This document shows positions 26,189 to 62,118 of a stretch of 64,000 bases of DNA, piece by piece (positions within the stretch are counted from its first letter, which is position 1; every line of letters begins with the position of its first letter). The position numbers were made by a program, and so were the translations under genes. The DNA lies in contig CM060733.1 of the NCBI GenBank assembly GCA_030704615.1, forward strand, positions 37,696,001-37,760,000, written 5' to 3'. Source of the DNA: Takakia lepidozioides. Lineage: Eukaryota > Plantae > Bryophyta. Under the pieces are notes generated by a model. That model searched no databases. It saw only the letters and a program-made list of their open reading frames with translations, and was not told where the DNA came from.

Positions 26189-29100
26189 CTATGACTTCGG
26201 AACAGTTACACTCAAGATCTTAACATCGGTGTAAGGTTTATCATTCTTATCAGTCTTCACCTTCTCAATGGCCTGCAAGGAACAACAGCTCAAATTTAGT
26301 CTTTAAGAGCGAGTTTCACAAATCCTGCCTCTTTGAGATATGTGATCATGACAATGAGGAAAGTCGTAAGGTGAGCCAACAAACCTGGACAACGTCCATG
26401 CCTTTAGCAACACGGCCAAAGACGGTGTGCTTATTGTCCAGCCACGGGGTAGCAACTGTGGTAATGAAAAATTGAGAACCATTGGTATTTGATCCTGCAT
26501 TTGCCATTGACAGTGTAAAAGGCCGATCATGCCGTAGACTGCAAAAGGCTCCCACAGCACTCTGTCAATACTCAATACAGTAATTTCAACTAGAATGGCT
26601 GTTGAGAAGCATATGGAAATGATGTCACCACTGGCCATCTCAGAATTCACACTCCTTACTCTACATCCCCAGCAAGGAAGGTTGAGTAGTTTGTAAAGCT
26701 GTGATAAACTGATCCTAATGAAGAGGATAGAGAAAGAGGTTTGCCTTTTGTGAAATTCGTCCTCAAATTCACCGCCCCAGATAGACTGCCCACCAGTGCC
26801 GTCTCCTAGAGGGTCGCCTGTCTGTACCATGAAGCCCTTTATGACACGGTGAAAGATGAGGTTGTCATAATACCCATTGCGGCAGTGCGTTGTGAAATTC
26901 TCCACAGTTCGCGGACACTCCTCTGGATACAATCGCACATGAAGATCTCCCAGTGTTGTGTGCACAATCTGGGCCAGGAGAGGTCAAGTTGGATTGCTTC
27001 TTTACAGTGAAAAACTGAAGAGAACAAAATATGCCTCCAAACGCCATACATTTGCTACGTTTTATGTATGTTCTCTTCTTTAACAATGGTGTTTGAGCAC
27101 GGAAACAGTATTATGACAGTTCAGCACCAGGGAATCCTGGTTTGGGTGCCTACCACATTCTCAGGCAAGGAAGTGGTGGTGGCCTTGCCAACATCAGAAA
27201 TGGCCAGAAGCTCCTCAGGAGGGGGCTTCTCATTGAACACATCACGTCCTTTGGTAGCATCCTCTGCCTCCTCAGGTTCTCTCCGACTGCCAAACTAAGC
27301 TTTAGTTTAAGGAGAAGTACCCCATCGAACCAGCTCAAAGAAGTTGCCAATTCATTTACAGATACAATCCCAAGAGCACCCAAATCTTTGCAATTGAATT
27401 CACCAAACAAAATGATACATGTGCTGCGAACGACTCGTCCAGTCCTGGCCCATTACAGTAGGATCCCTTCTGGACAGTGGCTACAGCAGCAGTTATTCAA
27501 TAAGCTGAAAAAGGTATCTATAAACCATGTCCTATCCCCTATCTACGATACCCCTAAGCAACAGGCATCCAGATGTTAACTGCACGGAAACCTACCTGAA
27601 GAGGTAAACTCGGTGTTTTTTGAATGCACAGCACAGCAAGGTTGGATCCGTAAGTGGCTCCCGCTGCTCATTCACATTAGCAGCCGCAGCAGGTAACTTC
27701 TTCACCCTTTTAGTGCTGTACCCGCCTTGATACAGCGCAATCTTCAAGAACCGCTCTGTATTCTCCACTTTCCCTATTATCCTTGCCACTTTATTTGTAT
27801 GTAAGTTGACCACCTGCCAGCAATCCCAAACAGCAATTACTTACCAACCAAGGAAGAAGAGAACATTCCTTCAATTGCGTAAGAAGGGACCCCATTCCCA
27901 GCTTCGATGGATGAGAAAAGGGGGTGCAGAAAGCAAAGCAAAGAGCAATCGGAAGCGGATAAGAATATAAGGGACAGAGGATTGCCTTGATGCCAAGTAG
28001 GGTAGGGTAGAGCAAGAAGTTTGAGCTCTCATCAAAAATGGCATTTGGTAAAGGAGCACCCTCGGTTTTCTCAATCTCCTTCTCCACAGCCATACGACGC
28101 CCAAAGTCAATAGCATCCAGTCTGTATAGGGGCGCATCACTCCTCTGGAGGTCTTGCGCTACCTGCACCCCTCTTTCCCAACCCCTCCCTTTTCTTTAGG
28201 CCCCTGAATCAAGTTTCTCCTGAAGCACTCTTGGCCTGTACACATCACATCTATGTAAGAAATATGAATGAGTTGAAAGTCACCTCAAGGGACTCATCAT
28301 AAGTACGGCGTAATCTGCCAGTAGCAAACCAGAAGACGCGAATTCTGCGATCTGGTGAGGTTGTAACAAATTGCTTTCCATCTGTACTCACCTGCTCCAA
28401 ATCCCCCCTTTTTCAGTACATACTAATCTGAAGTCCCCATATTCCTAGGATGCCATAAAATGGCAACTTATCAACATTACAAAGACAACATGCCTGATGT
28501 CACTTCTTTCGATAAGAAGATGGGGTGGTTTTCATGTAACTTGGTGAGAAACAAACAGAAGAGAGATGTGTACCTCAAGGGAGGAGACAGTTGTTTTGGA
28601 TTTTGCAAGAGAGTAGAGGTCTGTCTCCGTCTTGAACTTGAACTGCACACTATTCAATCCCCCCTCACTCATTTTGATTCCCAAACTGTCAACCTTTTCA
28701 TAATTCCTTTTCTTAGGCCATATCTATCCTATGCACCAATGGTACATGTCCACAAAACCATCCACAGTATTTAGCAAATGGACATCCATGGTTGGTTCTC
28801 ATTTCAGCCAACAAAAGATCATTTAACCTTCTGCTTAGTAAGGGACTGTATATACCTGTGAGAAGGGAACTGGAGTGTGTCAGGGGACCAGTATTCCAGC
28901 AAGCCCTTGGCATCAGCAGACACCACCACATCATACACCGCATTGTACTTCATCACCTTGATTGGCACCATGTGAACCTGCACCCAAATCACGTCTCTAC
29001 ACAGTCAGAAAAGAGCACTAGAACATGTCAGCAACTGATGCCCCAGAAGGAAGCTCTGTTTATCTATCTATACTATTTATGTGTGTGCTCAACAGTTTTC

Positions 29101-30544
29101 TTCCTTTCTAACTCGCCCAATTAAATGAGGCATCCAAAATACAATTGAAAGGGCTAGACGAAAAAGACCTGCTTTGAAAGGAGAGCATCATTGCTGCCAG
29201 AACGGGCATCAAATATGTGGACAGTTGGAGATGCCCGGTCACTAACTGCAAGCTTAGCCCTTGCATCCCCTTGCTTGAAAACCCATTCGATTGCCCCCGG
29301 GACAAATGGCAAACGAAGCATGGCCATCATGTCATAGTTCACAACATCATAAATCTTGGCTGAACGATCATTTGAAATTGTGCAACACAGAAGGCCATCT
29401 GGACTCACCTGCATTTCATCTCATTGGTCAGAAAAGAGGCTTGACCAAGAAACTGGCAAATGGAAAGGGGGAAATAAAGGAATCGTGTTGTTAAAAAACG
29501 ATAAGGTTAACAAGCAGCTGCATCAGGTAGAATCATACATACTGTTGATGAAGGACTTACAGCAAGGCCTTCAATGGGACCAAGGTGGGAGCGAAAATGC
29601 TTCACAAATTCAATGCCCATGCCCTTCTTTTTCCAGAACTTGATATGTCCTGCACACAATGTCACATCCACTGCAAGATAAGCCGTGAAGCAGAACAGAG
29701 TGCATCTGACCGCCATGCTAGTGGAACCACTGTTCCAAAAGTGATAGGCAACAACTAAAAATATCATGAGGGAAAAAGGAGACCCGGGCACAGAGAGAGA
29801 GAGACACTCACAGACACAGTAAAACCGTTCTGGATACATATACTTGTAATGTTGTCGAAATACAACCCTCACCCACATCACACAGGAAAGGGAAGGAGAG
29901 AGAGACAGAGACAGAGGGGGCACCATCAAAACTGCCGGTAATGAAGAAGTCAGCGCTGGAAGTTATAACGTGGCTGATAACATCCCGATGCATGTAGCTT
30001 TTCTCGTACCTGGAACCATCGCCCTTTCACTTCCATAAAGGTGATTCATTCAGTTGAACCAAAAATTCACGAGTGGTTAAGTTCTCATTAAGCACCATCA
30101 CATATCCACCCAAATCAAGAAAATGAATCTAGCACTTCCATATTCATATGAAGTCTCTCGGGGTAGAGGTCCACGCTAAGTTGAAGAAAAGAAGCGAATT
30201 CTGTGGCATTCAGTAGGGACATTTATCAAATGGTGATGTACGTAAGCTCACCACTGTGAGCAAACGTAGTTCCATCCAACCAAACCCTAAATTCAGTAAA
30301 CATGCATGCCAAAATTACGAGCAACTTTCGTGTGTGGTAGATGTCACGAGAAGGCATTGCAAGCGCATACTTACATCTGAGCACAGGGGAGTGCATCGAG
30401 AAACGCCTTTTCGAACTCGAGGGGTCGCTTTGGACGTGACGGGCGTGCAGGGCCTGGCCCGACAATAGGGGCATCCTCGGCATCCTCACCATTTGAATTG
30501 CCCTTGGAGTCCGCTGCTCCATCTTCGAGCAGTGTCATCGTCAT
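26189..30544 (-). CDS. CYP71: WD40-repeat cyclophilin (peptidyl-prolyl isomerase, PPWD1 ortholog), ~13 exons
   Basis: Exons give '[26 protein letters not shown]', '[23 protein letters not shown]', '[18 protein letters not shown]', '[47 protein letters not shown]', '[18 protein letters not shown]', ending '[10 protein letters not shown]' at 26189. Confidence 0.96.
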
Positions 30545-31050
30545 AGGGGAAAAGACAGCAGAGAAAGAAACGTCAACCCCAGAAGCCAAGCAATACGAAG
30601 CGAAGAAAAGAGGTAGGCTCAGGTCCACCGAGACCTTGGAGAAGAGAGGAGAGGGAGAGAACCCCTAAACCTCAGCTACACCTGTTCCCCTGTTGGACTC
30701 ATGTTCCCTCAAGTTCCCTAATTACAATCGCCGATTATTTTGGTTTTATTAAAAATTTATACATATAGGGCAATAGAACTTGGTAGTACCTAGTAACTTA
30801 CGTACTTACCCTAAATAGTTTAAGGATTCTAAGAATATACTACCTACTTGAAATGCGACTGGTTCCTTTAGGTTAAGTGATATATTGTCCAAAAACAATC
30901 ACAAAAAAAAGACAATCACCAGCATAATATATTTATTTATTTTTAAACCAAGGGCATGAAGCCAGGGAAAGGAAGACGACAGGGAAGAGGGATCGCTGCT
31001 TTAGGGTTTAGGGGTGAGAGAGGGGGAGAGAGGCGAAGAAGGGGAGGGCG
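30545..31050. promoter_or_regulatory. Short divergent (bidirectional) promoter region between CYP71 and UTP13, with a telo-box
   Basis: About 0.5 kb separates the two start codons. Telo-box TAGGGTTT at 31002-31009; another AAACCCTA lies at 30282-30289 in CYP71 intron 1. Telo-boxes are typical of plant ribosome-biogenesis genes. Confidence 0.55.
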
Positions 31051-33984
31051 ATGGCGCCCGTTGTGGCCTGCAAGAAGAACTATCGAGTGTCTCCTGCATT
31101 GCAGCGATTCTACACAGGAGGGCCAGTGGTGGTTTCTGCAGATGCCTCGTTTGTCGCATGTGCATGTACAGATGATGCTAAGATACTAGACCTGGCTAGT
31201 GGAGCAGTGACTAAAACCCTTAAGGGAGATTCGGAGCCCATCACCGCGCTTGCCCTGAGCCCTGATGGAAAATCCCTGTTCGCTGCGAGCCGTAGTCTTC
31301 AGATTAGGCACTGGAATTTATCCTCGGGTTCTTGCCTTCGCTCCTGGAAGGGGCATGAGGGTCCAGTGGCAGCCATGGCGGTAGATGCGTCGGGGGGCCT
31401 GCTGGCTACTGCAAGTGCTGATCGCAGGGTGCTGGTGTGGGACATTGACGGAGGTTTTTGCACTCATGTATTCCGGGGTCACACGGGCGTGGTGTCGTGC
31501 GTCCAATTCCATCCCGATGCCCACCGCCTTCTGTTGTTTTCCGGGAGTGATGATGGGACAGTGCGAGTGTGGGACTTGGTGACCAAAGCCAGTGCCGCAG
31601 TCCTTGATAAGCATTTCTCAACAGTGACTAGCCTTGCTGTGTCGACAAATGGATGGAGCTTCCTGAGTGCTGGAAGAGACAAGGTGGTGAACATATGGGA
31701 TCTACGAGACTACAGTCTACACACCACAGTCCCTGTCTTTGAAGCAATTGAGTCCATTTGTGTGGTCCCTGATGGGTGTGGCTTGCCGGGGAGTGGTTCT
31801 GATGCGGCACCAAGTAATAAACCAAAGAAGAGTGGTGGGGCTACTTTTCAGTTTCTGACAGTGGGAGAGCGTGGAATTGTTCGAATTTGGAATTCTGAGG
31901 GTGCTGTTTGTCTCTTTGAACAGAAGGAGTCAGATGCCATCCTCAGCTCTGAGAAAGACGATGCAAAGGGCGGCTTCACAGCAGCAATGTTGCTGCCCTC
32001 CCTACGGCAGCTAATGTGTGTCACTGCCGATCAGCGCTTGCTGTTTTATGAATCTGTGACTTTGGACAGTGGCAAGGTTGACTTGAAGTTGGGTAAGCGC
32101 TTTATTGGTTACAATGAGGAGATCATTGACCTGAAATTTGTGGGGGAGGGTGAGCGGTCGCTTGCTGTGGCCACAAATCTGGAGCAGGTGCGGATATATG
32201 ACCTGGCAACAATGACATGCCAGCAGGAGATGGTGGGGCATACCGACATCGTGTTGTGTCTTGACGTTAGTGTATCACCTGCAGGCCTCCCTGTATTGGC
32301 TTCTTCTGGCAAAGATCACACGGTGAGAGTATGGAATGCAGAAAGTGGAGCTTGTCTAGCTGTGGCTGCAGGACACATGGCAGCTGTTGGTGCAATTGCC
32401 TTCTCCAAAAAGCGCCTCAATTTCATCATTAGTGGAAGCAGCGATCGAACAATAAAGCTATGGAGTCTGGAAGGAGTGTTTGACATTGGGACAGGACCTG
32501 CAAAGTTATCATCACAGGCAGTGGTAGCAGCGCATGACAAGGACATCAATGCTCTGGCCATTGCCCCTAATGATAGCCTTGTTTGCAGTGGCTCCCAGGA
32601 TCGGACAGCTCGTGTATGGAAGCTTCCTGAGCTGGTCCCTGTACTCACATTGCAAGGGCACAAGAGAGGAGTTTGGTGCGTGGAATTCTCTCCCGTAGAC
32701 CAGTGTGTCTTGACAGCATCTGGGGACAAAACGATCAAGATCTGGGCTCTGACGGATGGATCCTGCCTGAAGACATTTGAAGGACACACAGCGAGCGTCC
32801 TCAAGTGTGCATTTCTCACAGGGGGAACGCAGCTGATCTCAGCAGGAGCGGATGGATTGGTGAAGCTTTGGACCATAAAGATGAATGAGTGCATTAATAC
32901 CTTCGATCACCATGATGACAAGATTTGGGCATTGGCTGTAAGTCGCAATACAGAGATGCTGGCAACTGGTGGTGGTGATTCACTCGTCAATTTGTGGACC
33001 GATTGCACTGCTGATGATGAGGCGGAAACTATTGGAGAAGAGGAGGAAGAGGCGCTCAAGGAGCAAGACTTGTCAAATGCACTGGTGGACACAGATTGGG
33101 TTAAAGCAGTACATCTGGCATTTGAACTGCGGCGACCCTTCAAGCTCCTCTCTATCTTCAAACACCTTCTCAAAAAGGAGGGGTCGCATGTGCAAATGCG
33201 TGAATGTTTGGAATCACTTGGAAAGGAATACCATCGGTTGTTGTTGGAGTATGTTCGTGACTGGAATTCCAAACCGAAGTCATGCCATGTAGCACAACGT
33301 GTGCTCTTTGACCTTCTGTCTGTGGTCCCCCCAGGAGAGCTAATTGAAGTGCCTGGTGTACGTGAACTAATGGAAGGGATTGTGCCATATACACAACGTC
33401 ACTTTAGCCGATTTGACCGTTTGTCGCGAAGCACTTTCTTGCTGGACTACACACTTGCCCGCATGTCAGTGCTCATGCCAGAAGATAATCTTACCTCCGC
33501 AGCTTTTGGCAATGGGACCTCCTTAGTTTTAGACAGAAAGGTCCTGCAGGTATCTGGTAGTATGCCTTCTATGACTTCTGAACGGCTCAGAAATGGCTTG
33601 GGTGCTAGCCCCTTGGAGAATGTGCAACAAAGTTTGTCATGGGATGGGGACAAGAGTGTGGCACTCGAGGAAGAAGGACGGATAGGAGGTGGACAGAACA
33701 TAGAGACAGAGGGTCATATTGCAATGGCCAGAGTTTCAATCAGCGAAGGGCAAGAGAGCTCTGAGCTAGACATGGTTGAGGAGAACACCATTCGGGCACC
33801 AGAAACCAATGGCAACAGAAACAGTGATGTACTAGCCAATGGTGGCCCACCAGCTCACTGGAAGTCTAGAAAGAAAATAACCAGTAAAACATTAGGTGTG
33901 GAGGATAGTGGGATTGGAGTAGGTAGGCGGAAGGGAGAGGCTCGAGTCAGCAAGAAGAGGAAAAATGCAGGTTTGGCATGCTGA
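31051..33984 (+). CDS. UTP13: SSU-processome WD40 protein UTP13/TBL3 (TORMOZ ortholog), intronless, 977 aa
   Basis: N-terminus 'KKNYRVSPALQRFYTGG'; ~13 WD40 repeats; 'GYNEEIIDLKF', 'AHDKDINALAIAPNDSLVCSGSQD'; Utp13 C-terminal domain 'LAFELRRPFKL..VRDWNSKPKSCHVAQ..PYTQRHFSRFDRLSRSTFLLDYTL'; basic C-terminal NLS-like tail. Confidence 0.95.
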   Translation: MAPVVACKKNYRVSPALQRFYTGGPVVVSADASFVACACTDDAKILDLASGAVTKTLKGDSEPITALALSPDGKSLFAASRSLQIRHWNLSSGSCLRSWKGHEGPVAAMAVDASGGLLATASADRRVLVWDIDGGFCTHVFRGHTGVVSCVQFHPDAHRLLLFSGSDDGTVRVWDLVTKASAAVLDKHFSTVTSLAVSTNGWSFLSAGRDKVVNIWDLRDYSLHTTVPVFEAIESICVVPDGCGLPGSGSDAAPSNKPKKSGGATFQFLTVGERGIVRIWNSEGAVCLFEQKESDAILSSEKDDAKGGFTAAMLLPSLRQLMCVTADQRLLFYESVTLDSGKVDLKLGKRFIGYNEEIIDLKFVGEGERSLAVATNLEQVRIYDLATMTCQQEMVGHTDIVLCLDVSVSPAGLPVLASSGKDHTVRVWNAESGACLAVAAGHMAAVGAIAFSKKRLNFIISGSSDRTIKLWSLEGVFDIGTGPAKLSSQAVVAAHDKDINALAIAPNDSLVCSGSQDRTARVWKLPELVPVLTLQGHKRGVWCVEFSPVDQCVLTASGDKTIKIWALTDGSCLKTFEGHTASVLKCAFLTGGTQLISAGADGLVKLWTIKMNECINTFDHHDDKIWALAVSRNTEMLATGGGDSLVNLWTDCTADDEAETIGEEEEEALKEQDLSNALVDTDWVKAVHLAFELRRPFKLLSIFKHLLKKEGSHVQMRECLESLGKEYHRLLLEYVRDWNSKPKSCHVAQRVLFDLLSVVPPGELIEVPGVRELMEGIVPYTQRHFSRFDRLSRSTFLLDYTLARMSVLMPEDNLTSAAFGNGTSLVLDRKVLQVSGSMPSMTSERLRNGLGASPLENVQQSLSWDGDKSVALEEEGRIGGGQNIETEGHIAMARVSISEGQESSELDMVEENTIRAPETNGNRNSDVLANGGPPAHWKSRKKITSKTLGVEDSGIGVGRRKGEARVSKKRKNAGLAC

Positions 33985-34199
33985 AAATACACACTAGGTA
34001 CCTGGGTTAATATATGCTAGCAAATGCATTGGCCTGTTGATTGCATCTTACCCCCCCCTGTTCTGTTTGTAGCTGGCATGGGGTCTGTGCCACAAAGCTA
34101 TGGCATGACATATTCAAAAGACCATATTTGCAACAATTGACCATCTACTCCAGCTGATGTCTTTTAGCTATTGATCCCTCAGCCTGAACCTGAACATGA

Positions 34200-37100
34200 A
34201 TCTGGACCTCTATCCCTGGTCCCTCAGCTATCCCTGCCCGTGTACATATCATCCCTCAGCCTTGCTACTAGCAGTTGACAGTGACGGCATGAAGTTCTTC
34301 TAGAAAACACCCCAACCTAGGACTTAACAGTAGTTCCAATTCTGAATTGCAACTGCTTCTCTCTGTAGTCGAACAAGCACTCACCTTTTTGTCTCCATTG
34401 TCCCCCCACTGACTGGGATCGGAAAGTGTTCATCCCAAAGCTTCTCTTCATCTTGTTATCTATTTTTGGGTACTTTCCTGCTGCCACATCAGCAGTAACT
34501 TGTCAAAGTCACTCCAAATCACCCCACATCCACCCAACGAGCTAACTTACAGCATTCAATATGTAAATTCAGGGCTGGGTCTGATGAGAGGGAAAAATAG
34601 GCTGAAATAGGTCGAAGAAGAAGGTGCCCTCACCACATTGTCCTCGACCTTGTGTCATGACCCATGGAGGATTTCACTGACCATGCACCCAAGAGGACCT
34701 CTTGTGTGTGCGAGGTGTGTGCTGCTTCCACAGGGAATTGTAGGCAATCTGGAGCTTGAAATCCGGCCCTCTTGGATGAATCTGGACCCACACTGCTCCC
34801 TGCTCCTTCAACTATCCATGCCTCTGCACAAATCATGCATACATCCTTGCCTTGATGCTAGCAGCTGACAATAACACTCTAGAATTGTTCCAGCAAACAC
34901 CCAACCCTACTTATCACACTAGTTCCTATGCTGACTTGCGTCTGCTTCCAACAGGCATTCACCTTTTTGCCTGGATTGTTCCACCATTGGCTGGGGTCGG
35001 AACCGTATTCATTCCAGAGCTTCTCCACATCTCTATTATCTGTTTTCGATACTATCCTGTCGACCACATTGGCAGTAACATGTCAAAATCACTCCAACAC
35101 CACCATAGATCCACCAACGAGCTAACTTGTAGAATTCAACATGAAAATATAGGTACGACTCTGATAGTAGGGGAAAACAGGGTGAAATATGTTGAAGAAG
35201 GTACCTTCATTAGCAGTGGCCTTGTTCTATCAATTGTGCTGCTGCCATTGCTGTTTCCAGTTGACCATCTACCCACTTGTAGCCGTTGTGCTATTGAAGA
35301 AGGTGCCCCCCCTTCCCCCATCATTTGATCATAGGTCTCCAAAGCCTCCATACCATTCCCTACTGTGCATACCCTGCAAGCATCGCGTTCCATGACACCA
35401 CATTTGGTTCAGCCATAGTGTTGAAAACTCTCTTCGCATCCTTAATGCACCCACATTTGGCATAGACGTCCACCAGGGGAGTATTCAGGATGACATCTGG
35501 TACAATTCCAGCTTTGACGGTGTCACCATGGACCTCTTTCCCCTTTTCCAGAGGTCCTAGGCTTGCACACGCATTGCAAACATGCGGAAGCGTGATGTGG
35601 TTGGGCTTCACCCCTTTGCGCAACATTTGCTCATAGGTCGCCAAAGCATTCCTACCACACCCATGTTTGGTAAATCGTGCCAACATTATATTCCACATGA
35701 TCAAAGATCGCTGAGGCATTCTGTAGAAATCTTGGCGAGCATCCATGATGCTCCCGCACTTAACATACATGTTGACAAGGGTGTTGAGTAGAAAAAACAT
35801 TTGTCATGAATCCACTTTGGATAATGTGAGTGTGCACCTGATTCCAGCTTCCAAACCTAGAGCCTTTGTCAGTCTGTCTGCCTCACAAAGCATCTTCACA
35901 TGCCCCGCGGAAAAGGCATTGTGGACTCCCTCTCTTGATCCTCTTTCAGAAGTTGCGGTCATGGTTGAGGACGTGCCTGATTTTATCAACTGTGCCGCTG
36001 CAGCTATTGCCTTTAGTTGACCATCTACCCATTTAGGTTTCTTGTAGCTATTGATCCACATGGAATCACAGGTAATCTGGAGCTTGAAGTCCGGCCCTCT
36101 TGGATGAATCTGGACCCACACTCTATCCCTTCTCCTTCAGCTATCCATGCCTCTGCACAAATCATGCATTCATCTTTGCCCTTGCTGCTAGCAGCTGACA
36201 ATGACAACCTAGGAAACACCCAATCACACTAGTTCCTATGCTGAATTGTGTCTGCTACAACTTTTTGCCTCGGTTGTTCCACCATTCACTGGGGTCAACA
36301 AAGTATTCATTCCACACCTTCTCCTCATCTCTGTTATCTATTTTGGATACTTTCCTGCTGCCACATCGGCAATTACTTGTCATAGTCATTTCAAACCACC
36401 ACAAATCCTCCCAACGAGCTAACTTACAGAATTCAATATGCATCTCAGGGCCGAGTCTGATGAGAGGGCAAAAAGACTGAAATAGGTCGAAGAAGAAGGT
36501 GCCCTCACCACATTGTCCTTGACAATTCAATATGTAAATTCAGGGCCGAGTCTGATGAGAGGGAAAAACAGGCTGAAATAGGTCGAAGAAGAATGTGCCC
36601 TCACCACATTCTTCAAGGCCTCCATACCACGCCCCTGCTGTGCACACCCTGCAAGCATCGTGTTCCACGTGATGAAAGATCGTTGAGGCATTCTGTTGAA
36701 CACTTGGTGAGCATCCATGATGCTCCCGCACATAACATACATGTTGACAAGGGTGTTGACTAGAAAAATATTTGGCGTGCACTTTGGATAATGTGAGTGT
36801 GCACCTGCTTTCTAGCTTCACTTGGCCTTTCATCTTGATGCACTTATGCAAGAGACAGACATACGTATCTGAATCTGCTGAAATGCCTCCTTGGTTTAAA
36901 GTCAGTAGAGCCTCTTTCAGTCTGCCTGCCTCACAAAGCATCTTCACATGCCCATAAGTGCCAGAAGAGGCATTGTGGACTCCCTCTCTTGATCCTCTTC
37001 CAGAAGTTGTGGTCATGGTTGAGGTGCCTGACTTTATCAACTGTGCCGCTGCAGTTGCTGCCTTTGGCAATGCAACCATGCACCTCTTTGCATCTGGTAA

Positions 37101-40100
37101 TCTGACAAACATTCACTTTGGTACAATTCCAGCTCTGAAGATGTCGCCATGTGGACCTCTTTCCCCTTTTCCAAAGCTGCCAGGGCAGTGTTCAGATTGA
37201 CATTTGGTACAATTCCAGCTTTGATGATATCCCCATGCACCTCTTTGCCTTGTCCAGGCCCGCTGCTAGGCTTGCACAAGCATTGCAAATGCACACAAAC
37301 ATGATGTGCTTCCATTGCTCATAGGGCTCCAAAGCCTCCATTCCACATCCCTGCTGTGCATACCCTTCAAGCACATCATATCGCACTCCACGACACCACA
37401 TGTCGTTCAGCCATAGTGTCAAACACTCCCTTTGCATCCTAGATACACCCACATTTTGCAAACATGTTCACCAAGGTATTGTTCAGAATGTCATTTGGTA
37501 CAATTCCAGCTCTAAAGATGTCGCCATGCACATCTTTCCTCATTTCCAAAGCTGCCAGGGCAGTGTTCAGATTGACATTTGGCACAATTCCAGCTTTGAT
37601 GATATCCCCATGCACCTCTTGCCCTTCTCCAGGGCTGCCAGGCTTGCACAACCATTGCAAATGCACACAAACATGATGTGCTTCCCCCATCATTTGCTCA
37701 TAGGTCTCCAAAGCCTCCATCGCACGTCCCTGCCGTGCATACCCTGCAAGCGTCGCACTCCACGACACCACATGTCGTTCAGCCATAGTGTCCAACACTC
37801 CCTTTGCATCCTAGATGCACCCACATTTTGCAAACATGTTCACCAGGGTATTGTTCACAATGACATCTGGTGCAATTCCAGCTCTGAAGATGTCGCCATG
37901 CACATCTTTCCCCATTTCCAAAGCTGCCAGAGCAGTGTTCAGATTGACATTTGGCACAATTCCAGCTTTGATGATATCCCCATGCACCTCTTGCCCTTCT
38001 CCAGGGCTGCCAGGCTTGCACAAGCATTGCAAATGCACACAAACATGATGTGCTTCCCCATCATTTGCTCATAGGTCTCCAAAGCCTCCCCCCACGTCCC
38101 TGCCGTGCATACCCTGCAAGCATCGCACTCCACGACACCACATGTCGTTCAACCATAGTGTCCAACACTCCCTTTGCATCCTAGATGCACCCACATTTTG
38201 CAAACATGTTCACCAGGGTATTGTTCAGAATGACATCTGGTGCAATTCCAGCTCTGAAGATGTCACCATGCACATCTTTCCCCATTTCCAAAGCTGCCAG
38301 GGCAGTGTTCAGATTGACATTTGGCACAATTCCAGCTTTGATGATCCCCATGCACCTCTGGCCCTTCTCCAGGGCTGCCAGGCTTGCACAAGCATTGCAA
38401 ATGCACACAAACATGATGTGCTTCCCCCATCATTTGCTCATAGGTCTCCAAAGCCTCCATCCCACGTCCCTGCCGTGCATACCCTGCAAGCATCGCACTC
38501 CACGACACCACATGTCGTTCAGCCATAGTGTCCAACACTCCCTTTGCATCCTAGATGCACCCACATTTTGCAAACATGTTCACCAGGGGTATTGTTCACA
38601 ATGACATCTGGTGCAATTCCAGCTCTGAAGATGTCGCCATGCACATCTTTCCCCATTTCCAAAGCTGCCAGAGCAGTGTTCAGATTGACATTTGGCACAA
38701 TTCCAGCTTTGATGATATCCCCATGCACCTCTTGCCCGTCTCCAGGGCTGCCAGGCTTGTACGAGCATTGCAAATGCACACAAACATGATGTGCTTCCCC
38801 CATCATTTGCTCATAGGTCTCCAAAGCCTCCATCGCACGTCCCTGCCGTGCATACCCTGCAAGCGTCGCACTCCACGACACCACATGTCGTTCAGCCATA
38901 GTGTCCAACACCCCTTTGCATCCTAGATGCACCCACATTTTGCAAACATGTTCACCAGGGTATTGTTCAGAATGTCATCTGGTGCAATTCCAGCTCTGAA
39001 GATGTCGCCGTGCACATCTTTCCCCATTTCCAAAGTTGCCAGGGCAGTGTTCAGATTGACATTTGGCACAATTCCAGCTTTGATGATATCCCCATGCACC
39101 CTTGCCCGTCTCCAGGGCTGCCAGGCTTGCACGAGCATTGCAAATGCACACAAACATGATGTGCTTCCCCCATCATTTGCTCATAGGTCTCCAAAGCCTC
39201 CATCCCACGTCCCTGCCGTGCATACCTTGCAAGCATCGCACTCCACGCCACCACATCTCGTTCAGCCATAGTGTCGAACACTCCCTTTGCATCCTAGATC
39301 CTAGATCCCTTTGCACCCACATTTTGCAAACATGTCCACCAAGGTATGGTTTAGAATGACATTTGGTACATTTCCAGCTCTGAAGATGTCGCCATGGACC
39401 TCTTTCCCCTTTTCCAGAGCTGCCAGGGCAGTGTTCATAATGACATTTGGTACATTCCACTTTGATGATACCCCATGCACCGCTTCGCCCTTGTCCAGGG
39501 CTCAATGCACCCACATTTTGCATACATGTCCACCAGGATATGGTTCAGAATGACATTTGGTACAGTTCCAGCTCTGAAGATGTCGCCATGGACATCTTTC
39601 CCCTTTTTCCAGAGCTGCCAGGGCAGTGTTCATAATGACATTGGGTACAATTCCAGCTTTGATGATACCCCATGCACCTCTTTGCCCTTGTCTAGGCTCG
39701 ATGCACCACATTTCGCATACATGTCCACCAGGGTATGGTTCAGACTGACATTTGGTACAATTCCAGCTCTGAAGATGTCGCCATGGACCTCTTTCCCCTT
39801 TTGTCCTTGTCCAGGGCTGTCAGGCTTGCACAAGCATTGCAAATGCACACACAAACACGATGTGGTTGGGCTTCACCCCTTCGCGCATTTGCTCACAGGT
39901 CTCCAAAGCATTCGTACCATGCCCATGCTTGGTAATCCTGCCAACATTATATTCCATGTGATTAAAGATCGTTGAGGCATTCTGTGTTGAACACTTGGTG
40001 ATCATCCATGATGCTCCCCTTAACATACATGTTGACAAGGTTGTTGAGTAGAAAAACGTTCGACGTGAATCCACTTTGGACAATGTGAGTGTGCACCTGC

Positions 40101-40640
40101 TTTCCAACTTCTAGGCCTTTCATCTTGATGCACTTATGCAAGAGACACACATACGTATCTACATCTGCTGAAATGCCTCTGTTTAAAATCTGTAGAGCCT
40201 CTTTCAGTCTGCCTGCCTCATAAACATGCCCATAAGTGCCATAAGAGGCATTGTGGACTCCCTCTCTTGATCCTCTTCCAGAAGCTGTGGTCATGGTTGA
40301 GGTGCCTGATTTTATCAACTGTACCGCTTCCAGCTGCCGCTTCCAGCTGACCATGTACCCATGGAGGTTTCTTGTAGCTATCCTTCCACAGGGATCCATA
40401 GGTAATCTGGAGCTTGAAATCCGACCCTCTTGGATGAATATGGACCCACACTCTATCATGCTCCTTCAGCTATCACTGCCTTTGCACAAATCATGCATAC
40501 ATCCTTGCCTTGTTGCCAATGCGATCATCGCACTCCACGACACCACATCTCGTTGAGCCACAGTCGAACACTACCTTCGCATCGTCAATGCTCCCGCATT
40601 CAGCATATATGTCCACCAGGGCGGTGTTCAGAACGACAAA
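34200..40640 (-). pseudogene. Decayed, segmentally duplicated PLS-class PPR gene(s) fused with OSB-type PDF motifs
   Basis: PPR motifs (NTLVNMYVKCGSIMDARQ, VVSWNAMLAGYAQ, GVKPNHIT, LEKGKEVH) with many stops and frameshifts. Repeated PDF-motif halves 'EKLWNEY..DPSQWWNNPGKK' / 'IHPRGPDFKLQIT.DS.W.NSYKKPKWVDGQL'. The same lead-in 'GSREGVHNA..GHVKMLCEAGRLKEAL' occurs three times (~35900, ~36950, ~40230). Confidence 0.85.
37110..39340 (-). repeat. ~6 tandem copies of a 370-372-bp PPR-derived unit
   Basis: The anchor ccacattttgcaaacatg recurs at 37449, 37821, 38191, 38561, 38933 and ~39317. Shorter derived repeats continue to ~39860. Confidence 0.95.
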
Positions 40641-41030
40641 CCCTACAAGCTGGACCATGGACCTTCCATGTCACTTCCAAGTGGAGGCAATACATATTAA
40701 AATATCTATTCCCCCAAGGCCACATTTTCTTTACATGTTCTTGTGAAACACACGTCAGCAAATGTGGCCCCGAATCACGGGTGCAATCAATGCGTAGTGG
40801 TTCATGGAGTCGTTGAGTCGACTACATATTCACTTTAATGAATAAATATCTTTATTCCATTAATCAAATTATGAATGAAAATTTCTAGTCGCATGTGCAG
40901 TAATTAGAACCACTTGGAATTTCCGTTTTTTCAAATTTTATGTATTTCCGTAATTAATTAAATAGCCCGGATTTTTGCTACGACTCCGGAGTCGTTGACC
41001 CCACTTCTGCCCGCCGTCTGAAATGCCCCC

Positions 41031-50954: not shown

Positions 50955-53900
50955 TGGGCCCTATAACAAAAAAGTGTCCAGGGGGACACCAGGTGACCGC
51001 TAAGAATAGAGGGGCGAGGGTACCCCTAGGTACCCAGGGGTATTCTGGGGGACCTAAGGTACATTTGAAGTGCCGGATTCCAGTTGGCGTTTGTTGGTGA
51101 TAATAGCTGTGAGTGAACGGAGTGCCGTGATATGGATTTCTTTGAAACATTTGTGGATGGGAAGAATGGGAATTTGGAAGTTATCGTGTATGTCCGTGAT
51201 ACTGGCGTTATGAATGCCACCTCGAGTGCCGGCTGTGATGACAGTTAACGGGCCGGTTTTCCAGCCACGCCTTTGGAGTGCAAGGATAAGCGGGGCATAT
51301 TTTTGACGTTTTTCTAAGATTGAATCGTTTGGATAACGATCATGGCAAAATGTGAATTCAATGAAATGGATGGTGAGTTGTGGGGATGGTGAGGTGGGGG
51401 GTAAAGTGTTGATAGGTAGACCTTGGACAAGGAGTATGTCCGGGCAAAGTCGAGCGGGGCATGAGCATGGTGATCGGGTACATATGCATGGTAGTAGCCA
51501 CGGTGGTACTGTGTGGTCGGGTGGCCGTCCCTGGTAGATACTTGCATTCATGAGCAAGAACCAACGGGTTTCAACACGTTTTAGAAAGAGCTTGTGGAGG
51601 TGCCAGACTGCCTGGTTATGACGCGTGATATGCAAGCCATGTATAACTGGGTGTGTACATTGGCTGAGGAGATGTGGCCAAGTGTCACGAGCTTGGTGGG
51701 TGGTTGCACATAACGGGCAGTATGGGGATGGGAACAGATGTGGCCAGAAGATGTGTTTGCGCTGGTGGCCCATATATTGGGCATATCGGAATTTGAGTGT
51801 TTGTCGGATTTGTGCGTCGTCGGTGGTGGCTTTGGTTAGCCAGAAATGATTGGAGAGTTTAGGTGCAGTACATTGGATTGAGTCCATTTTTGGATGTGTA
51901 CTTTGGTATGGCTGATGGAGGCTGCCGCTTGTTTATTTGCCTCTCTGGTCAGAGTGGTCAGGAGGTTTCGGACTGGTCTGGGTGCGGGGGGGGTCCAGAA
52001 TGGGGTATATGAACCAGAAGGGATGGGTGTGGGCGATGTGAATAGGGTCGTTCGAGGTTTCAACTATGGGTTGGGAGGCGCCGAGTTGGGCGAGTAGGTC
52101 TGCATCTTCATTACCATGGATGCCAGTATGCGAACGGACTTTGAGTATATGGACTGGGTGGCCTAGGGAGATGGCCCTCTGGACAATAGCGGCAATGAGG
52201 TTGCGGTCGGGTGATGATGATGGGCAGAGGGGTGGGAGATGTGGTTACGAATGAGGAATAGTGAGGTAAGGTTGTCGGTGAAGATGTAGTGTGGGGAGGG
52301 GAAGGTGTCAAGTAGAAGAGGGCGTCATAAATGGCCATGAGTTCAGTCCGGAGGATGGTGGCAGGGCCAGGGAGCCTGAGGGCAATGCCTTGATTGGTGC
52401 CGGCGTGATAGATTCCATACCCTGCATTAGGTTTGGTGAGGGATCCGTCAGTGTAATGTGAATTGGCCAGTGGGTATTTGGGGATGGTGTTTTGTTGATA
52501 TATTAGAGGTGTAGAGGTGTTGTTGGCGCGACCTGGGAAGGGCGTGGTGTCGCAATGTTCCAAGCTTAGTTGGTTTTGATCCATGACAATGTGGTGGGTG
52601 TATGGGTGTGGGAGAGGATGGTTGGATAATGGATGGTGGCCTTTATTTTATGAGTGATGGTGAGCAACTGTTCGAGCTGAGAAAAGAAAGATGGCGGTAT
52701 GGCTGTATGCCGGGGGTTTTGGATGTGTAGAATCAGGGTTAGGGTGGTTCCTTCCATTTGAGATGTTTGGGAAGAGGAGGGGTATGAATATACTTAAGCT
52801 GGTTTGGGTCAATTGTGGCGAGTAGATTGACCCCTTCTGGGAGTTGTAGAAGAGGGTGAGAGATATTAGGAGTGTTTTGTTGTGTAAGGATGAGGATTGT
52901 GGATGCAGTAGGAGAGGAGTGCGCAGCAAGTTTTGCCCATTGAAGAGCTTCGTGAGAAGGAGAACCAGGTGGAGGGTGGGCAAGGCCCCGGCCTTCCCAG
53001 GTGTGCTGGGTGGCAAGTACCAGTGGCTCCAAAGACACAGTCTCTGTGGTGCGGGCTAGAGAATGTGGGCAATGCCATAGGGCATGTCAGTGGGTTGGAG
53101 TAATATGAGTGAGTAAGCTGGAATGTGTTGATAAGTAAGGAGAGAATATCTTGGGGTATAGTATGGTGCGCACATGTTGTTTCCAATTTAGTGGGGGACC
53201 GCGGTTTCTTGGGGGGAGTGTCTTTGAGATAGCGATCAACCAGCCAATATAATTCGGTAGCAACGTCTTGTTTTGGGGGTTGTAGCGATTGTGGGGATGA
53301 GATAGTAGTAGAGTATTTCTCCCAGAGCCACGTTAGTCTTGTATTGGGGACGAGGCCAATGAAGCGGTCATGTTGAGCGTAAATGTTGGAAAGGCGGGGG
53401 CCCGTGTGGATTAGAGGTTGATCATGCTTGACATCTTTGTCAGGATTACATTCAGTTATGCAGATGTGCATGTTGGGGGCATAAAGTGATTGGTGTATAT
53501 ATCTGCTATCTGTAGGTTGGGCGGGAGTGGTGTGTTGTTGGTGCATGTGTGTTAGATAATTGGTGTTGGTTTGTTTATGGAAGGTGGTGAGGAGGGCAAG
53601 ATTGTGTTTGGGGTCGCAAACGTCATGTAGGCCGAAGAGGTCGTCTTCCATCTGCCATGTGTTGTCTGCGGAAGTGTACCTAGCCCATTGACAGTGATAG
53701 TATGTATCAATGCAGGTGGCTCCAAAGGCATCAATGGACGTTTGGGTTTTAACTCCTAGTATAGCTTCAATGATGTAAGCATTGTTATTGTCGTCGTATT
53801 GTGGTGAGGATGGGGGGGATGGTGCGGTGGTTAGGGGGGTGTGGGATCCTTGCCTAGTAGGCGAGGGATTGGATGGCGTATGCAAGTGGCGGATAGGTTC

Positions 53901-54458
53901 AGGGTGTTGTGTGTTAGTTACTTGAGAGGGAAAATCAGATTCTATGTCTGTTTGGGTATTGGTGGCATATGCCGTTTTGAGTGTTTGGTAGATGGAGGTA
54001 GTAGGGGTAGAACGGTACTGGGGGAGCAGGTCTTGAGCCGTATGCGGATAGTAGAGGCATGGGAGGTCACACTGTAGAGTGTAGGCGGTCGAGGGATGGC
54101 AGAATAGGGTACGAAGATGATGTAGGTAGCGATTGGTTTTGTTCGTGGCTTGGGAGAATTTAAGAGTGAATTCGCTAGGTTTTAAAAGTCTATGGCCAGT
54201 GGCGGTAGTAAGTTGGGTGATGGTGGTGATGTGTCGTTCTTTGAAATATGTGAGGATGGGGACATTTTGTTTGGGATAAGAAATGTCAAATTGTGGTAGA
54301 GAAGGGCTTGTAAGCCATGCGCGTTCTAAGGGTGATGAGGTGTTAGGATATTCAGGCAGATCAGTTTGTATGCTAATTTTCATTTGGCGCAAGATGAGTA
54401 ATGTGCGTGCAGTGGGGGAATGTAGGTAGGCTTGTGGGTGCAGGGTGGCTCTTTGCAT
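50955..54458 (-). mobile_element. Dualen/RandI-like non-LTR retrotransposon, 3' part (chromodomain, PCIF1-like MTase, RNase H, CCHC, restriction-like endonuclease), frameshifted and 5'-truncated
   Basis: RNase H: 'YTDGS..AGYGIY', 'TILRTELMAI', 'IFTDNLTSL', 'KVRSHTGIHGNEDADLLA'. RLE module: 'CPLCATTHQARDTWPHLLSQC', 'RHNQAV', 'PDILLV', 'IEFTFCHD', 'KRQKY'. Coding strand strongly C/A-rich. Confidence 0.8.
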
Positions 54459-54479
54459 GGTAAGGATGATTATTTTGAC

Positions 54480-56182
54480 TTGACAATTGTGTTACTTCAT
54501 GCATGTGACCTATACCATCCAGCCCCCTCCCTTGGCGGTGCATTACGCCGTTTTCGTCCCTCTCCTGGACTGCAGTCTGTGAGCAAATCAGTCTTCCCCC
54601 TCCTATTTGGTTTTCCCGGACCCTTGCGTGCGCGCACCTTCAAGCCTCTCTGACATAGCGGTCTTTCGCATTTGCTGGCAAAAGTTCATCCCAGCTCGTC
54701 TTCTTCTGCCAGCCGAATTGTGTTTCGGCGCAAATAAGATCTCTCTTGTCTCCCACGCCACGCTGTTGCTCTCTCGCTCCCCCCCCCCCCCGCATTGTCT
54801 GCTCTGGCAGCCCCTCTTGCTGGCTCTCTCGTCACTTGCCGTTTAGGTGTAGCGTCAGACCTTGCTGACCCTCTTCTTCTCTTGCGTAGCTGGGAGACTT
54901 TAATTTTTTCCGGCTCTATTCAAATCTCAATCTCCTAGAGGATTAATTGGATTGCAGCTCTTGTCGGGCGCCCTCCACAGCCACTCAAGCCATCTCAAAT
55001 TCTAGCTCCTCTCAGGACATTGGCCGCCCTTGAAAGAGCACATAAGGAGACTTTGAACAAGCCCTTGGCGCTTCCCTGCTTGCTCGCTACTTCTTCTTTT
55101 TCTCCCTGCTTAGACGGTGAGTCTCTGGACAAGCGAGCTCCCATAGCCCCTCATGGGCTCTCGTGGTGCCTCCCACAGGAAGCGCTCAGGTTCTGGCTCC
55201 AGTGCAAGAGGAAGAGGCAATTGGATTCCCCGTTCCACGGCCTCTGTTCCAAGCTCCATCTTGGGCAAAGGACCCGAAATTGCGGCTCCGTTTGCAGGTG
55301 CTGACCTCTTCCCGTGGGCTGAATCGGTAGTCCCATAATCAGATTTGCAGGAGATTATCTCGCTTGACCTTGAATGTCTGGGAGCACACTCAGATAAAAT
55401 GATGCAGCATGGGATTCTAATCCATTTCCCGGGGCGGCGCAGAGACAAAGATTGGACAAGGAAATGGGTTTCTGAGTACATTGGTTCCGAAGGAGGGCTA
55501 TCACACCACTCCTGCCACCCTATGGGTAGAGGATTTTACTCGGTGAAATTTGGATCCAAAGCAGATGCTGACAGAGCCCTGGCGTTTAACACTCGCAAAT
55601 CTCGTTTCAAAGTTCACCTCTTCCCGTGGTCTCCAGCTTGGGGTCACAAAGAAGGGCAACATTCAAACCGAGAATCATCGCCCTCCCTTTCCTGGCATCA
55701 TTGCCTGAAATAGGAGCCCATTTCGGTTCCTACATTGGGAGCATCAATGTGTTTGATCCCATAGATGATGCAGTTTTGAGCGTTGATCAGGACCCAACTC
55801 TTTTTTACTCAAGCAATGATAGCGGTGTGCCCAAGATAGTGGTTATGGTGTCCGACACGGCCAAAATTGGTAATGCGATCAGGCTGCCTACGTTGGATGG
55901 TTCATACATCTCTGTGCAAATTAAAGAAGAGGTCTTAAGTATCGTGTGCTTCAGATGCAACGGGGCAGGACACATCAAGGTGGATTGTCCTCACAGAGAG
56001 AAAGGCGAGGGGAAGACAAATGTGCCCCTGGCTCCCAAATCGACAATGGCACCAGCTGCTCCTGCTCCCGCACCCAGGCCCCCCTCACCATCGCGTTCCA
56101 TAGATGTCAGCACCGCTTTGGCCTCGCTCCCCACGCACGCTGACGAACGAGCGGCCAAAAGAAAGAGAAAGGGCTCGCCCTC
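54480..56182 (+). mobile_element. L1 LINE 5' part: pyrimidine-rich 5' UTR and degenerate ORF1 (DUF4283-like + zinc knuckle)
   Basis: 'PMGRGFYSVKFGSKADADRAL...LFPWSP', 'LPEIGAHFGSYI', 'CFRCNGAGHIKVDC'; several frameshifts. Confidence 0.75.
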
Positions 56183-59560: not shown

Positions 59561-59759
59561 GCCGGTACGAAGTTAGACTATCTAGATCCATCCATAGCTG
59601 CCACGGACCCCTGCACTTACTGCAGCCGGGTAGGCGGTTCGCTGAGCCCAACCTACACCGCAACTTGCCACGACCTCCTAGGCTAATATGCCGTCACCCT
59701 GGCCGCGCGCGACCAGGGCTCGTCACCCTCTGTGTCATCTCCCCCGCCTCATCCACGGC

Positions 59760-62118
59760 TCATGTTGTTGCCTCGTGATCAAGGAAGTCCCGCCCATCAC
59801 CCTTCGGCAATATTTGACTTTTGTCCGTTATCCAACTCCTTAGAAGATCCTCTGACAAACTTGGCAACAAGGTGCCTTGAGTTGAGATCTTTTGCTAATC
59901 TAAAGCTATGTGATTGGACCCCAGACAGTGCTGTAAGAAGAAACTTGGCGGTTGTGAAAATCACGCCAATCATCTACGGGCAAATTAATGGGTCAGCAAA
60001 CCCCCCCTCGATTCTGCTGACAAATGGATTGGAAGGCTTGGCAGGAGCATGGATCACTACATTTCATGCTACGCACTATTCGGCATCTAGGGAGGTGGAG
60101 CTCTATGTGAAGCTAATTGGGAACATCATTGCGGAACAACCATTCCATTTTCATCTTTCAAATGAAACCATCGTCCATTTTGGTGCATTTTGGGAAAACT
60201 CGGCAGAGTATGAAGAGGCCTCTACTGTCCATACCTTACTTGCTATTCGGTGGGAGGACATTGTCAGAGATGTAGGAACGGCAAAAGACTTCAGCTGGCT
60301 CACCAGAAGGAAACTCTTTGATGGCTCGCTTGGAGGCTTCCCCATAAGCAGCAAGATTCTATTTGCAGGCTTCATCCTGGTGAATGCCATCCTGGGCTCG
60401 GCCTCATCTCCAACCCCGTCGCCCACAGCCCGCAGAGAAGCAGAAGTTGGCTCTGGTAATATGTGTGAGTCCCCAACTCTTAGATTCCTCTCAAAGCTGG
60501 AAGCTACGAGAGTAAAATCTCAAGAAATATCTAGAGAGCTGGCAAGGGCTCTATCCCAAAGGGAAAAGTCATTGCTTAAGTGCCTACAGCTTTGTCATCA
60601 ACTCTTAGAGAATGGGGATGAAGGTCCAAGCACTCAGGCTAGCTACAACAGGGCGAAGTCAAATCTCTGGAAAATTAGACAAGAGAAAGACAACGCCTAA
60701 AGAATTAAGGCTGGTGTGAATTGGTCCTTGAAAGGTGAAAAAATGACTAAGTATTTTTTTATTAAAGCAAAACAAAGGCGCATGGCATCTGCCATTGCTT
60801 CTCTCACCAGGCCAGACGGTTCCTCTTATGCTCTTCCAAAACATATGGCTCTAGGAGAGTATCCTCGCCGGAGAAGGAGCAGGCTGTTGATGAAATTCTG
60901 CAGAGCATCCCCTCGCTCTTATGTGAAGAGGAAAAAAGTGAGCTTGCTGCCCCTCTCACTAATTCAGAGCTAAAGGAGGCCCTGCAATCCCTTCAATATG
61001 GTAAAATGCCTGGAATGGATGGAATGCCGATTGAATTTTTTAAGGCCCTCTGGTCTACTGTGGTAGAAGATTTCGTGGCCCTGGCCAAGGATATCCTCAT
61101 GAAAGGCATAATGCCATCGCAGCTGTCTATGGGTCTTATCACTCCGATTTTTAAAAAATGGGACAGGAGCCAGTTTTCTAACTACAGACCGATTACTCTC
61201 TTGAACACCACTTATAAGATTATTGCCAAAGCATTAGCGCTAAGGCTCCAACCTGTTCTCTCCAGGGTCATAAGGCCAGAGCAAACAGGCTTCCTCAAGG
61301 GGAGAATGATGTTAGATAATTTCCTACTCATCCATGAGGCAATGCATAAAGCTAAAATTTCAGAGCAGCCTCTGGCTATTTTAATGCTGGACTTTGAAAA
61401 AGCCTTTGACAATATTGACTGGAGCTTCTTGCACAAGGTCCTCGAAAAAATTGGGATGCCCGAGACTTTCTCAAAATGGGTAAAAATCCTTCTCTCTTCA
61501 GCATCGAGCAAGGTTGTCGTTAATGGAGCTATCTCTAAACCTTTTGCTCTATTCAGGTCTGTAAGGCAAGGCTGTTCCCAGCGCCTTACCTCTTCCTCAT
61601 TGCAGCAGATGCGTTGGGTCACTACTTGAACTCTAGACATGACATTGTAGGTCTACAAGTGTCGGGTGACTCAGCGGTAAAGTTGTCTATGTATGCTGAT
61701 GATACTACCCTCATGTTGAACAATGAGAAATCCCTCAACATCAGTAGAGCTTGCAAAGCACTCTAACTCTTCTGTGATGCTTCTGGTTTAAAGGTTAATT
61801 GGAATAAGTCTATAGGGCTGCTCACTGAACTCTCTCCCAATGCTTGGGGTCAGGAGCTGGGACTCAGGTGGCTCCAGCCTGGATCTGCTCATACCCTGTT
61901 GGGTTTTCAGGTTGGCATTGGGCTCTCAGAGGAGCAGAGATTTGAGCCCATCCTTAGAAGGCTACGTAATAAGTTAGCTTTCTGGAGCTCCGCAATGTTA
62001 TCAGTGGCACGAAGGGCTCTAGTGCTTAGTCAAATATTACTAGCATATATTTGGTTCTCGGCTTTGGTATGGTCCCCAAGTTCAAAGCTAGTCGTCAAGA
62101 TTAAAGCTTTCAGAAGAT
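59760..62118 (+). mobile_element. L1 LINE ORF2 remnant (reverse transcriptase)
   Basis: 'WSLKGEKMTKYFF', 'PGMDGMPIEFFK', 'NYRPITLLNTTYKIIAKAL', 'QTGFLKGR', 'LDFEKAFD', 'SVRQGC', 'YADDT', 'LSVARRALVL'; stops and frameshifts. Confidence 0.9.

What the first reader, a model, noticed from the sequence alone, without database searches (positions are those of the whole stretch)
35804..36360. In-frame fusion of OSB 'PDF' ssDNA-binding motif(s) to a PLS-class PPR array
Seen: exon 'DNRDEEKVWNEYFVDPSEWWNNRGKK' (~36360-36261), an intron-like gap, then one open frame (36121-35804) 'IHPRGPDFKLQITCDSMWINSYKKPKWVDGQLKAIAAAAQLIKSGT...GHVKMLCEADRL' running into the PPR lead-in. The copy at ~35050-34700 has clean splice sites (AAAAAG|gtgaat...ccag|ATTCAT). 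Further PDF halves lie at ~34400, ~35270 and ~40440. Known: 'LW..FF..P..WWDNR..K.NP..PDFKH..TGE.LW......P.WV..QL' is the PDF motif of plant organellar OSB proteins, which binds ssDNA; PLS-PPRs bind organellar RNA, mostly in editing. Inference: the ancestral gene encoded a [PDF]n-PPR chimera that could link organellar ssDNA (replication, recombination or R-loops) to sequence-specific RNA recognition. I know of no formal description of this architecture.
Basis: partly seen in the sequence, partly recalled or inferred. Interest (0 to 1): 0.78.

Follow-up and report, generated by a model that had tools for sequence, protein, structure and literature searches.

The report
Broken copies of PDF-PPR fusion gene
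This stretch holds broken tandem copies of a gene, likely from a moss, in which a small single-stranded-DNA-binding module of organellar OSB proteins sits in front of RNA-reading PPR repeats; the same pairing is intact in a bracken fern protein and a close relative, where the module would likely help RNA-editing factors grip single-stranded targets.

Summary
The motif is a true OSB-type PDF: copy A scores 71 bits on an OSB-built profile, shuffles at most 7. Its internal phase-0 intron lies exactly where 7 of 7 genomic OSB loci have one. The locus is a pseudogene cluster: copy A has lost its splice donor, reaches the PPR array only through two frameshifts, and shows no E/DYW end. The architecture is nonetheless real. 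Two intact proteins of about 1370 aa (bracken fern and a 73%-identical unnamed relative) carry three PDFs before PPR repeats and an E motif, and their PDFs are as conserved as the PPRs. Thousands of paralog contigs in two likely-RNA runs cover the window's PDF and linker, but no clean splice junction was listed. The window's PDF is nearer to a moss-type OSB (58%) than to the fern fusions (33-42%), hinting at separate captures (not proven; p-AU 0.07). I found no paper describing the fusion. This scan noted it before in other genomes (five notes). Function is inferred: editing factors with an added single-strand grip.

The parts
36261..36357 (-). Copy A, PDF exon 1 (first half of the motif); acceptor is a tandem CAGCAG at 36360-36355 (inferred); one base short near 36340
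   Evidence: 27.4 bits on OSB PDF profile; 73-78% DNA identity to the OSB exon of L001/L005; extra base in 9 contigs of X1 and 7 of X2
36110..36260 (-). Copy A intron remnant, 151 nt, donor deleted, acceptor kept
   Evidence: DNA alignment of copies A-D
36014..36109 (-). Copy A, PDF second half (start of exon 2)
   Evidence: 35.0 bits; 74-75% DNA identity to the OSB last exon
35843..36013 (-). Ser/Thr/Gly-rich linker and first PPR helix, in frame with the PDF; in-frame 75-78 nt deletion near 35858; frameshift near 35843
35360..35842 (-). Broken PPR array of copy A (extra base near 35795; stop at 35362-35360; no E/DYW after it)
   Evidence: Pfam PPR_2 E 9.9e-19
35216..35281 (-). Fragment F: end of a PDF plus start of the linker
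   Evidence: repeat family D20
34963..35055 (-). Copy B, PDF exon 1
   Evidence: 19.6 bits
34782..34962 (-). Copy B intron, GT..AG, phase 0, 181 nt, same position as in OSB genes
34722..34781 (-). Copy B, truncated PDF second half
   Evidence: 13.6 bits
34130..34481 (-). Copy C: frameshifted PDF exon 1, intron, heavily deleted exon 2
39962..40515 (-). Copy D: 3' part of the intron, PDF second half (40439-40344), linker with a 1-nt insertion, PPR lead-in
   Evidence: 23.8 bits
37150..39850 (-). About 371-bp tandem PPR unit in several copies, each with the same stop, so amplified after the gene died (inferred)
   Evidence: repeat families D1-D5; ORFs ending at the same residues
36620..37064 (-). 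Copy E: linker plus PPR lead-in and first repeats, without a PDF, frameshifted

Best explanation
The locus is a cluster of broken tandem copies of a gene, likely from a moss, that joins an OSB-type PDF module to a PPR array, and intact members of this architecture likely work as organellar RNA-editing factors whose PDF would add a sequence-independent grip on single-stranded nucleic acid. Shown: the motif's identity; the shared intron position; the decay; intact fern PDF3-PPR-E proteins with conserved PDFs. Inferred origin: the last two exons of an OSB gene, with their intron, were copied at DNA level in front of a PPR exon; the gene was then amplified, and this copy decayed and duplicated in tandem. 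Inferred mechanism: PPR arrays read RNA with their N-terminus at the 5' side (established knowledge, recalled), so the PDF would sit just upstream of the recognised bases. There it would raise affinity for unpaired RNA, or hold the factor on the ssDNA of transcription bubbles in the nucleoid, doing in cis what accessory editing proteins do in trans.
For: PDF profile scores. Phase-0 intron at the same codon in 7 of 7 genomic OSB loci, and the spliced form in the eighth locus, L008. PDF second half, linker and PPR lead-in in the same order in copies A and D. Intact P0124 and P0164 (Pteridium aquilinum) have 3 PDFs of 70-80 bits, PPR families and an E motif. Between them the PDFs are 75-82% identical, PPR+E 77%, linkers 20-55%. 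In X1/X2, 3238 and 1857 contigs lie on 35340-36400. Majority letters move copy A towards the OSB pattern (V to L, V to S, K to A), the main linker indels are 3 and 6 nt, and loose ends at 35840 continue in the intact PPR frame. One X2 contig bridges PDF end and linker (35915-36068). Decay: synonymous to non-synonymous differences between window copies are 3:11, 1:5 and 3:10; no minus-strand frame is open for more than 190 aa.
Against: No intact moss PDF-PPR protein turned up in my searches: 1 of 34 profile hits had PPRs, 2 of 3 long hits (one being the query itself), 0 of 8 metagenome loci. No clean exon1-exon2 joint was among the joints listed (15 of 50 shown; 15 of 451), and several contigs run unspliced across the acceptor. 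No single contig spans PDF to PPR array. Neither fern protein has a DYW domain and P0124's E motif is below Pfam's cut-off. By the reviews read, the PDF is known to bind ssDNA; I saw no evidence that it binds RNA.
Confidence: 0.6

Rival explanations
1. In this moss lineage the PDF exons are passengers: part of a 5' untranslated or unspliced leader carried along as a PPR family amplified. Only the fern fusions use the module.
For: Contigs cross the acceptor unspliced and no clean joint is listed. Copy D begins inside the intron and copy E lacks the PDF. Some paralog contigs carry frameshifts (35954).
Against: Majority letters in the contigs keep or restore OSB-like residues, and the main linker indels are in frame. 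Intact splice signals remain in copies B and C.
Confidence: 0.18
2. One reading: the PPR array is the address and the PDF the effector. The protein brings an OSB-like ssDNA coat to specific RNA-DNA structures (R-loops, primers) and so controls organellar recombination or replication.
For: PDF alone binds ssDNA and OSB loss changes mitochondrial recombination (passages of PMC6963530, PMC13393729). Three tandem PDFs in the fern proteins resemble multi-PDF OSBs. Synthetic P-type PPRs can bind ssDNA with the same code (passage of PMC12733224).
Against: The intact relatives end in an E motif, typical of editing factors. A large paralog family fits one-factor-per-site editing better than genome maintenance (inference).
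Confidence: 0.14
3. In the fusion the PDF is a protein-contact or folding module (dimerisation, recruiting a trans deaminase, stabilising the first repeats) and does not bind nucleic acid.
For: MORF helpers are confined to seed plants (passage of PMC13386178), leaving room for a built-in helper. The fern fusions lack DYW. The predicted PDF is a compact helix-strands-helix unit.
Against: The Trp, Arg/Lys and PDF residues shared by OSB motifs are kept in the fusions.
Confidence: 0.06
4. The junction is a chance product of decay: an OSB fragment landed beside a dead PPR gene.
For: The cluster is heavily shuffled.
Against: The junction is in frame, repeated in the window, seen in contigs of two studies and matched by intact proteins. 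No OB-fold remnant is in the window.
Confidence: 0.02

Closest known systems
[quoted passage not shown]
   Same: Full PDF motif. Same intron position as unnamed single-PDF OSB genes L001-L007 and 58% amino-acid identity to that type.
   Different: No OB-fold. The PDF lies N-terminal to PPR repeats instead of C-terminal to an OB-fold. Multi-copy family instead of one or two genes in seed-free plants (PMC13393729, passages).
PLS-class PPR RNA-editing factors (E / DYW subgroups)
   Same: PPR arrays; E motif in the intact fern relatives; large paralog family.
   Different: Extra N-terminal PDF module(s). The window's copies are broken and show no E or DYW end.
Known fusions among editing-factor domains (RRM-PPR, MORF-PPR, MORF-RRM; PMC13386178)
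   Same: An accessory nucleic-acid-binding or helper domain fused to PPR motifs.
   Different: The partner here comes from DNA-maintenance proteins. The paper's main text has 0 occurrences of OSB, PDF or ssDNA.

Membership tests
OSB PDF motif | About 50-aa motif with conserved Trp residues and the Pro-Asp-Phe signature | tested here: met
   71.2 bits against at most 7.2 for shuffles; exon 1 alone 27.4 bits; invariant columns
OSB PDF motif | Binds single-stranded DNA | not testable with these tools
   Known for AtOSB1 by review passages (PMC6963530, PMC6451138); untested for fusion PDFs
OSB protein family | OB-fold (SSB-like) domain before the PDF | tested here: not met
   No tblastn hit better than E 0.1 in the window; no SSB family in P0124 or P0164
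OSB protein family | N-terminal transit peptide, organellar location | not testable with these tools
   No intact start in the window; no targeting predictor available
PLS-class PPR editing factors | Tandem PPR motifs | tested here: met
   Pfam PPR and PPR_2 above cut-off for 35360-35803 and for P0124, P0164
PLS-class PPR editing factors | P-L-S triplet pattern | tested here: inconclusive
   No PLS-specific profiles available; judged from recalled motif signatures in the translations
PLS-class PPR editing factors | C-terminal E and/or DYW domain | tested here: not met
   Window: none found. Relatives: E motif 30.6 bits in P0164 (cut-off 27.3), 21.5 in P0124; no DYW family in either
PLS-class PPR editing factors | Intact, translatable reading frame at this locus | tested here: not met
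   Lost donor, frameshifts, stops; near-neutral differences between copies
PLS-class PPR editing factors | Required for editing of a specific organellar site | not testable with these tools
   Needs knock-out or heterologous editing assay

The most novel reading that the evidence does not exclude
Seed-free plants grafted the OSB ssDNA-binding module onto PPR editing factors more than once (a moss lineage and ferns separately). The module anchors editors on single-stranded DNA of organellar transcription bubbles or R-loops, coupling editing to transcription and possibly letting deaminase-bearing members act on organellar DNA itself.
Probability: 0.15. Interest if true: 0.85.

Novelty: new variant of a known kind. 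Interest (0 to 1): 0.55.

Why it matters
PPR editing factors are among the best-surveyed plant protein families, and the PDF motif has been treated as part of OSB DNA-maintenance proteins. Pfam returned no family for the motif, and the 2026 OSB survey kept only proteins with both PDF and OB-fold (PMC13393729, methods passage), so a fusion would slip through both kinds of survey. If the module is functional it links organellar DNA metabolism to RNA editing and offers a direct test of whether editing is tethered to the nucleoid. It is also a natural 55-aa add-on to try on synthetic PPR editors. The locus itself is dead, which limits its own value.

Tried and rejected
No whole genome is held for the window, so intact paralogs could not be sought directly. 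A word-based search with ORF 35804-36136 among longer proteins found nothing among 435 candidates. The ESM Atlas gave only sub-0.9 unrelated hits for that ORF and generic PPR clusters for P0124 residues 28-400. No listed run is on record as RNA; X1 and X2 are guessed RNA, supported by a contig that skips introns of the upstream gene. Contig depth is lower inside the intron than on both exons, but contig depth cannot rank parts of a gene, so I did not use it. The metagenome scan gave 8 confirmed loci of 194 pattern matches; 7 showed an OB-fold match, L002 did not, and none showed PPRs. No solved structure matched the PDF by sequence (41 hits, all to the OB-fold part) or by fold (best Z 3.6; no E below 0.001); this does not show the fold is new. 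A scan of prokaryote genomes could not run on alignment A3. Two of the 34 profile hits (P0121, P0154) were rejected as low-complexity repeats. Three rows (two half motifs, one mis-cut L005 row) were left out of the tree. The tree did not reject one origin for window and fern PDFs (p-AU 0.07). Zaegel et al. 2006 was not held and the supplement of PMC13386178 could not be read.

Full report
Setting. The window is land-plant nuclear DNA. The neighbouring UTP13 gene (31018-33984) has Physcomitrium patens as its best named relative at 73%, against 65-66% for liverworts and ferns, so a moss is likely. No whole genome is held.

The observation. The minus strand from about 34130 to 40700 holds four PDF-bearing units (A-D), two linker fragments (E, F) and several PPR pieces. 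Copy B has a canonical 181-nt phase-0 intron (34962-34782). In the focal copy A the second half starts at 36109, the gap is 151 nt and the donor is deleted. The frame runs from the PDF through a Ser/Thr/Gly linker into the first PPR helix. It then meets an in-frame 75-78 nt deletion, a 1-nt deletion and an extra base before the array, which ends in a stop. No frame in the cluster is open beyond 190 aa, and no E, DYW or OB-fold remnant was found. Differences between copies are near neutral (3:11, 1:5, 3:10 synonymous to non-synonymous). The 371-bp PPR units share one stop. The locus is a pseudogene cluster.

The motif is an OSB PDF. A profile of the window's second halves and linker found 34 proteins among 1.84 billion. 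Seven carry an SSB domain (six above cut-off), one carries PPRs, and one cluster is named OSB3-like; two hits were low-complexity artefacts. A new profile from 31 motifs of 11 OSB-type proteins (three of them isoforms of one gene) scores copy A at 71.2 bits and the best shuffle at 7.2. The second-half score is partly circular, but exon 1 was not in the first query and scores 27.4 bits. A predicted model of a related OSB motif (P0167) is a compact helix-strands-helix unit with block pLDDT 84-92 over the first 60 residues.

Origin. Eight unnamed metagenome loci matched. Seven are genomic, with a GT..AG phase-0 intron (244 or 258 nt) at exactly the window's position; the eighth, L008, is the spliced form. 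Seven of the eight show the OB-fold and none shows PPRs. Their exons are 70-78% identical to the window's at DNA level. That these loci are from mosses is my inference. The simplest reading is that the last two exons of an OSB gene were copied, intron included, in front of a PPR exon. That is DNA-level shuffling, unlike the retroposition described for most PPR expansions (PMC13386178, passages).

Intact fusions exist. P0124 (unnamed assembly, 1371 aa) and P0164 (Pteridium aquilinum, 1374 aa) are 73% identical. Each has three PDFs of 70-80 bits, PPR arrays and an E motif (above cut-off only in P0164), and no DYW. Their PDFs are 78, 75 and 82% identical, PPR+E 77%, linkers 47, 20 and 55%: the PDFs look to be under selection. 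They were 2 of 3 hits among proteins of 754-2400 aa, one being the query, so my sample is thin. The window's PDF is 58% identical to the single-PDF OSB type and 33-42% to the six fern motifs. The tree pairs it with that OSB (94/95) and keeps the fern motifs together (91/91), but on 65 columns one origin is not rejected (p-AU 0.07). Separate captures are a lead, not a result.

Paralogs in this organism. Two runs of two studies, guessed to be RNA, hold the region; one contig skips introns of the upstream gene. On 35340-36400, 3238 and 1857 contigs were laid, most at under 95% identity. Their majority letters move copy A towards the OSB pattern, the main linker indels are 3 and 6 nt, and loose ends restore the PPR frame at 35840. 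One contig bridges PDF end and linker. Against this: no clean splice joint was among those shown (15 of 50; 15 of 451), several contigs cross the acceptor unspliced, some carry frameshifts, and no piece spans PDF to array. A living moss family is likely but not shown here.

Mechanism. The E motif and the family size point to editing factors. By review passages the PDF alone binds ssDNA (PMC6963530, PMC6451138), and MORF helpers are confined to seed plants (PMC13386178). I therefore favour a built-in, sequence-independent grip at the 5' side of the PPR target, on unpaired RNA or on nucleoid ssDNA (0.6 overall). Rivals: passenger exons in this lineage (0.18), a PPR-addressed ssDNA coat for recombination or replication (0.14), a protein-contact module (0.06), a chance junction (0.02). 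No binding or function was tested.

Literature. Ten searches found no description of a PDF-PPR fusion. I read passages of PMC6963530, PMC6451138, PMC12733224 and PMC13386178 (0 occurrences of OSB or PDF in its main text; supplement unreadable). For PMC13393729 I read the abstract, outline and passages and searched three supplementary files: 0 occurrences of PPR, and the survey required both PDF and OB-fold. Zaegel et al. 2006 was not held, and most subscription papers are outside the library, so a passing mention cannot be excluded.

Earlier notes of this scan. Five notes on other genomes report the same pairing in mosses, a liverwort, a clubmoss and a fern. I confirmed the fern case and the motif's identity myself; the intact moss, liverwort and clubmoss cases I could not check. 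They are not counted as evidence.

Verdict. A real feature at a dead locus; a new variant of PLS-type PPR proteins carrying an OSB module; interest 0.55.

Noticed in passing
P0122, P0123, P0135: Dinoflagellates (Cladocopium, Effrenium, Yihiella) have proteins made of tandem PDF motifs with no SSB Pfam match (P0122: seven motifs scoring 26-64 bits), outside the green lineage where OSBs are described. An unnamed 908-aa protein, P0165, has 11.
   Followed up: partly
window 33402-34476: One X1 contig runs from the UTP13 coding region across PDF copy C, with about 85 letters that the window lacks, so copy C probably lies in the UTP13 3' untranslated region, antisense to the PDF.
   Followed up: no
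window 31018-33984 +: UTP13/TORMOZ gene as one 988-codon open frame without introns.
   Followed up: partly
window about 26300-30670 -: Spliced gene with a cyclophilin domain, probably the WD40-cyclophilin CYP71/PPWD1 type (label recalled), head to head with UTP13; exons joined in contigs of both runs.
   Followed up: partly
window 36110-36165: Many paralog contigs cover the 3' end of the PDF intron, and a second possible acceptor lies at 36153; using it would give a stop in these copies. Alternative splicing may switch the PDF off in some transcripts.
   Followed up: no
window 8209-10103 +, 51054-54491 -, 59687-63579 +: Decayed retroelements; reverse transcriptase domains confirmed at 8376-9464 and 60766-61629.
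   Followed up: partly
window 1175-1921 -: 248-codon open frame with a weak NIF phosphatase-family match (E 1.3e-05).
   Followed up: no
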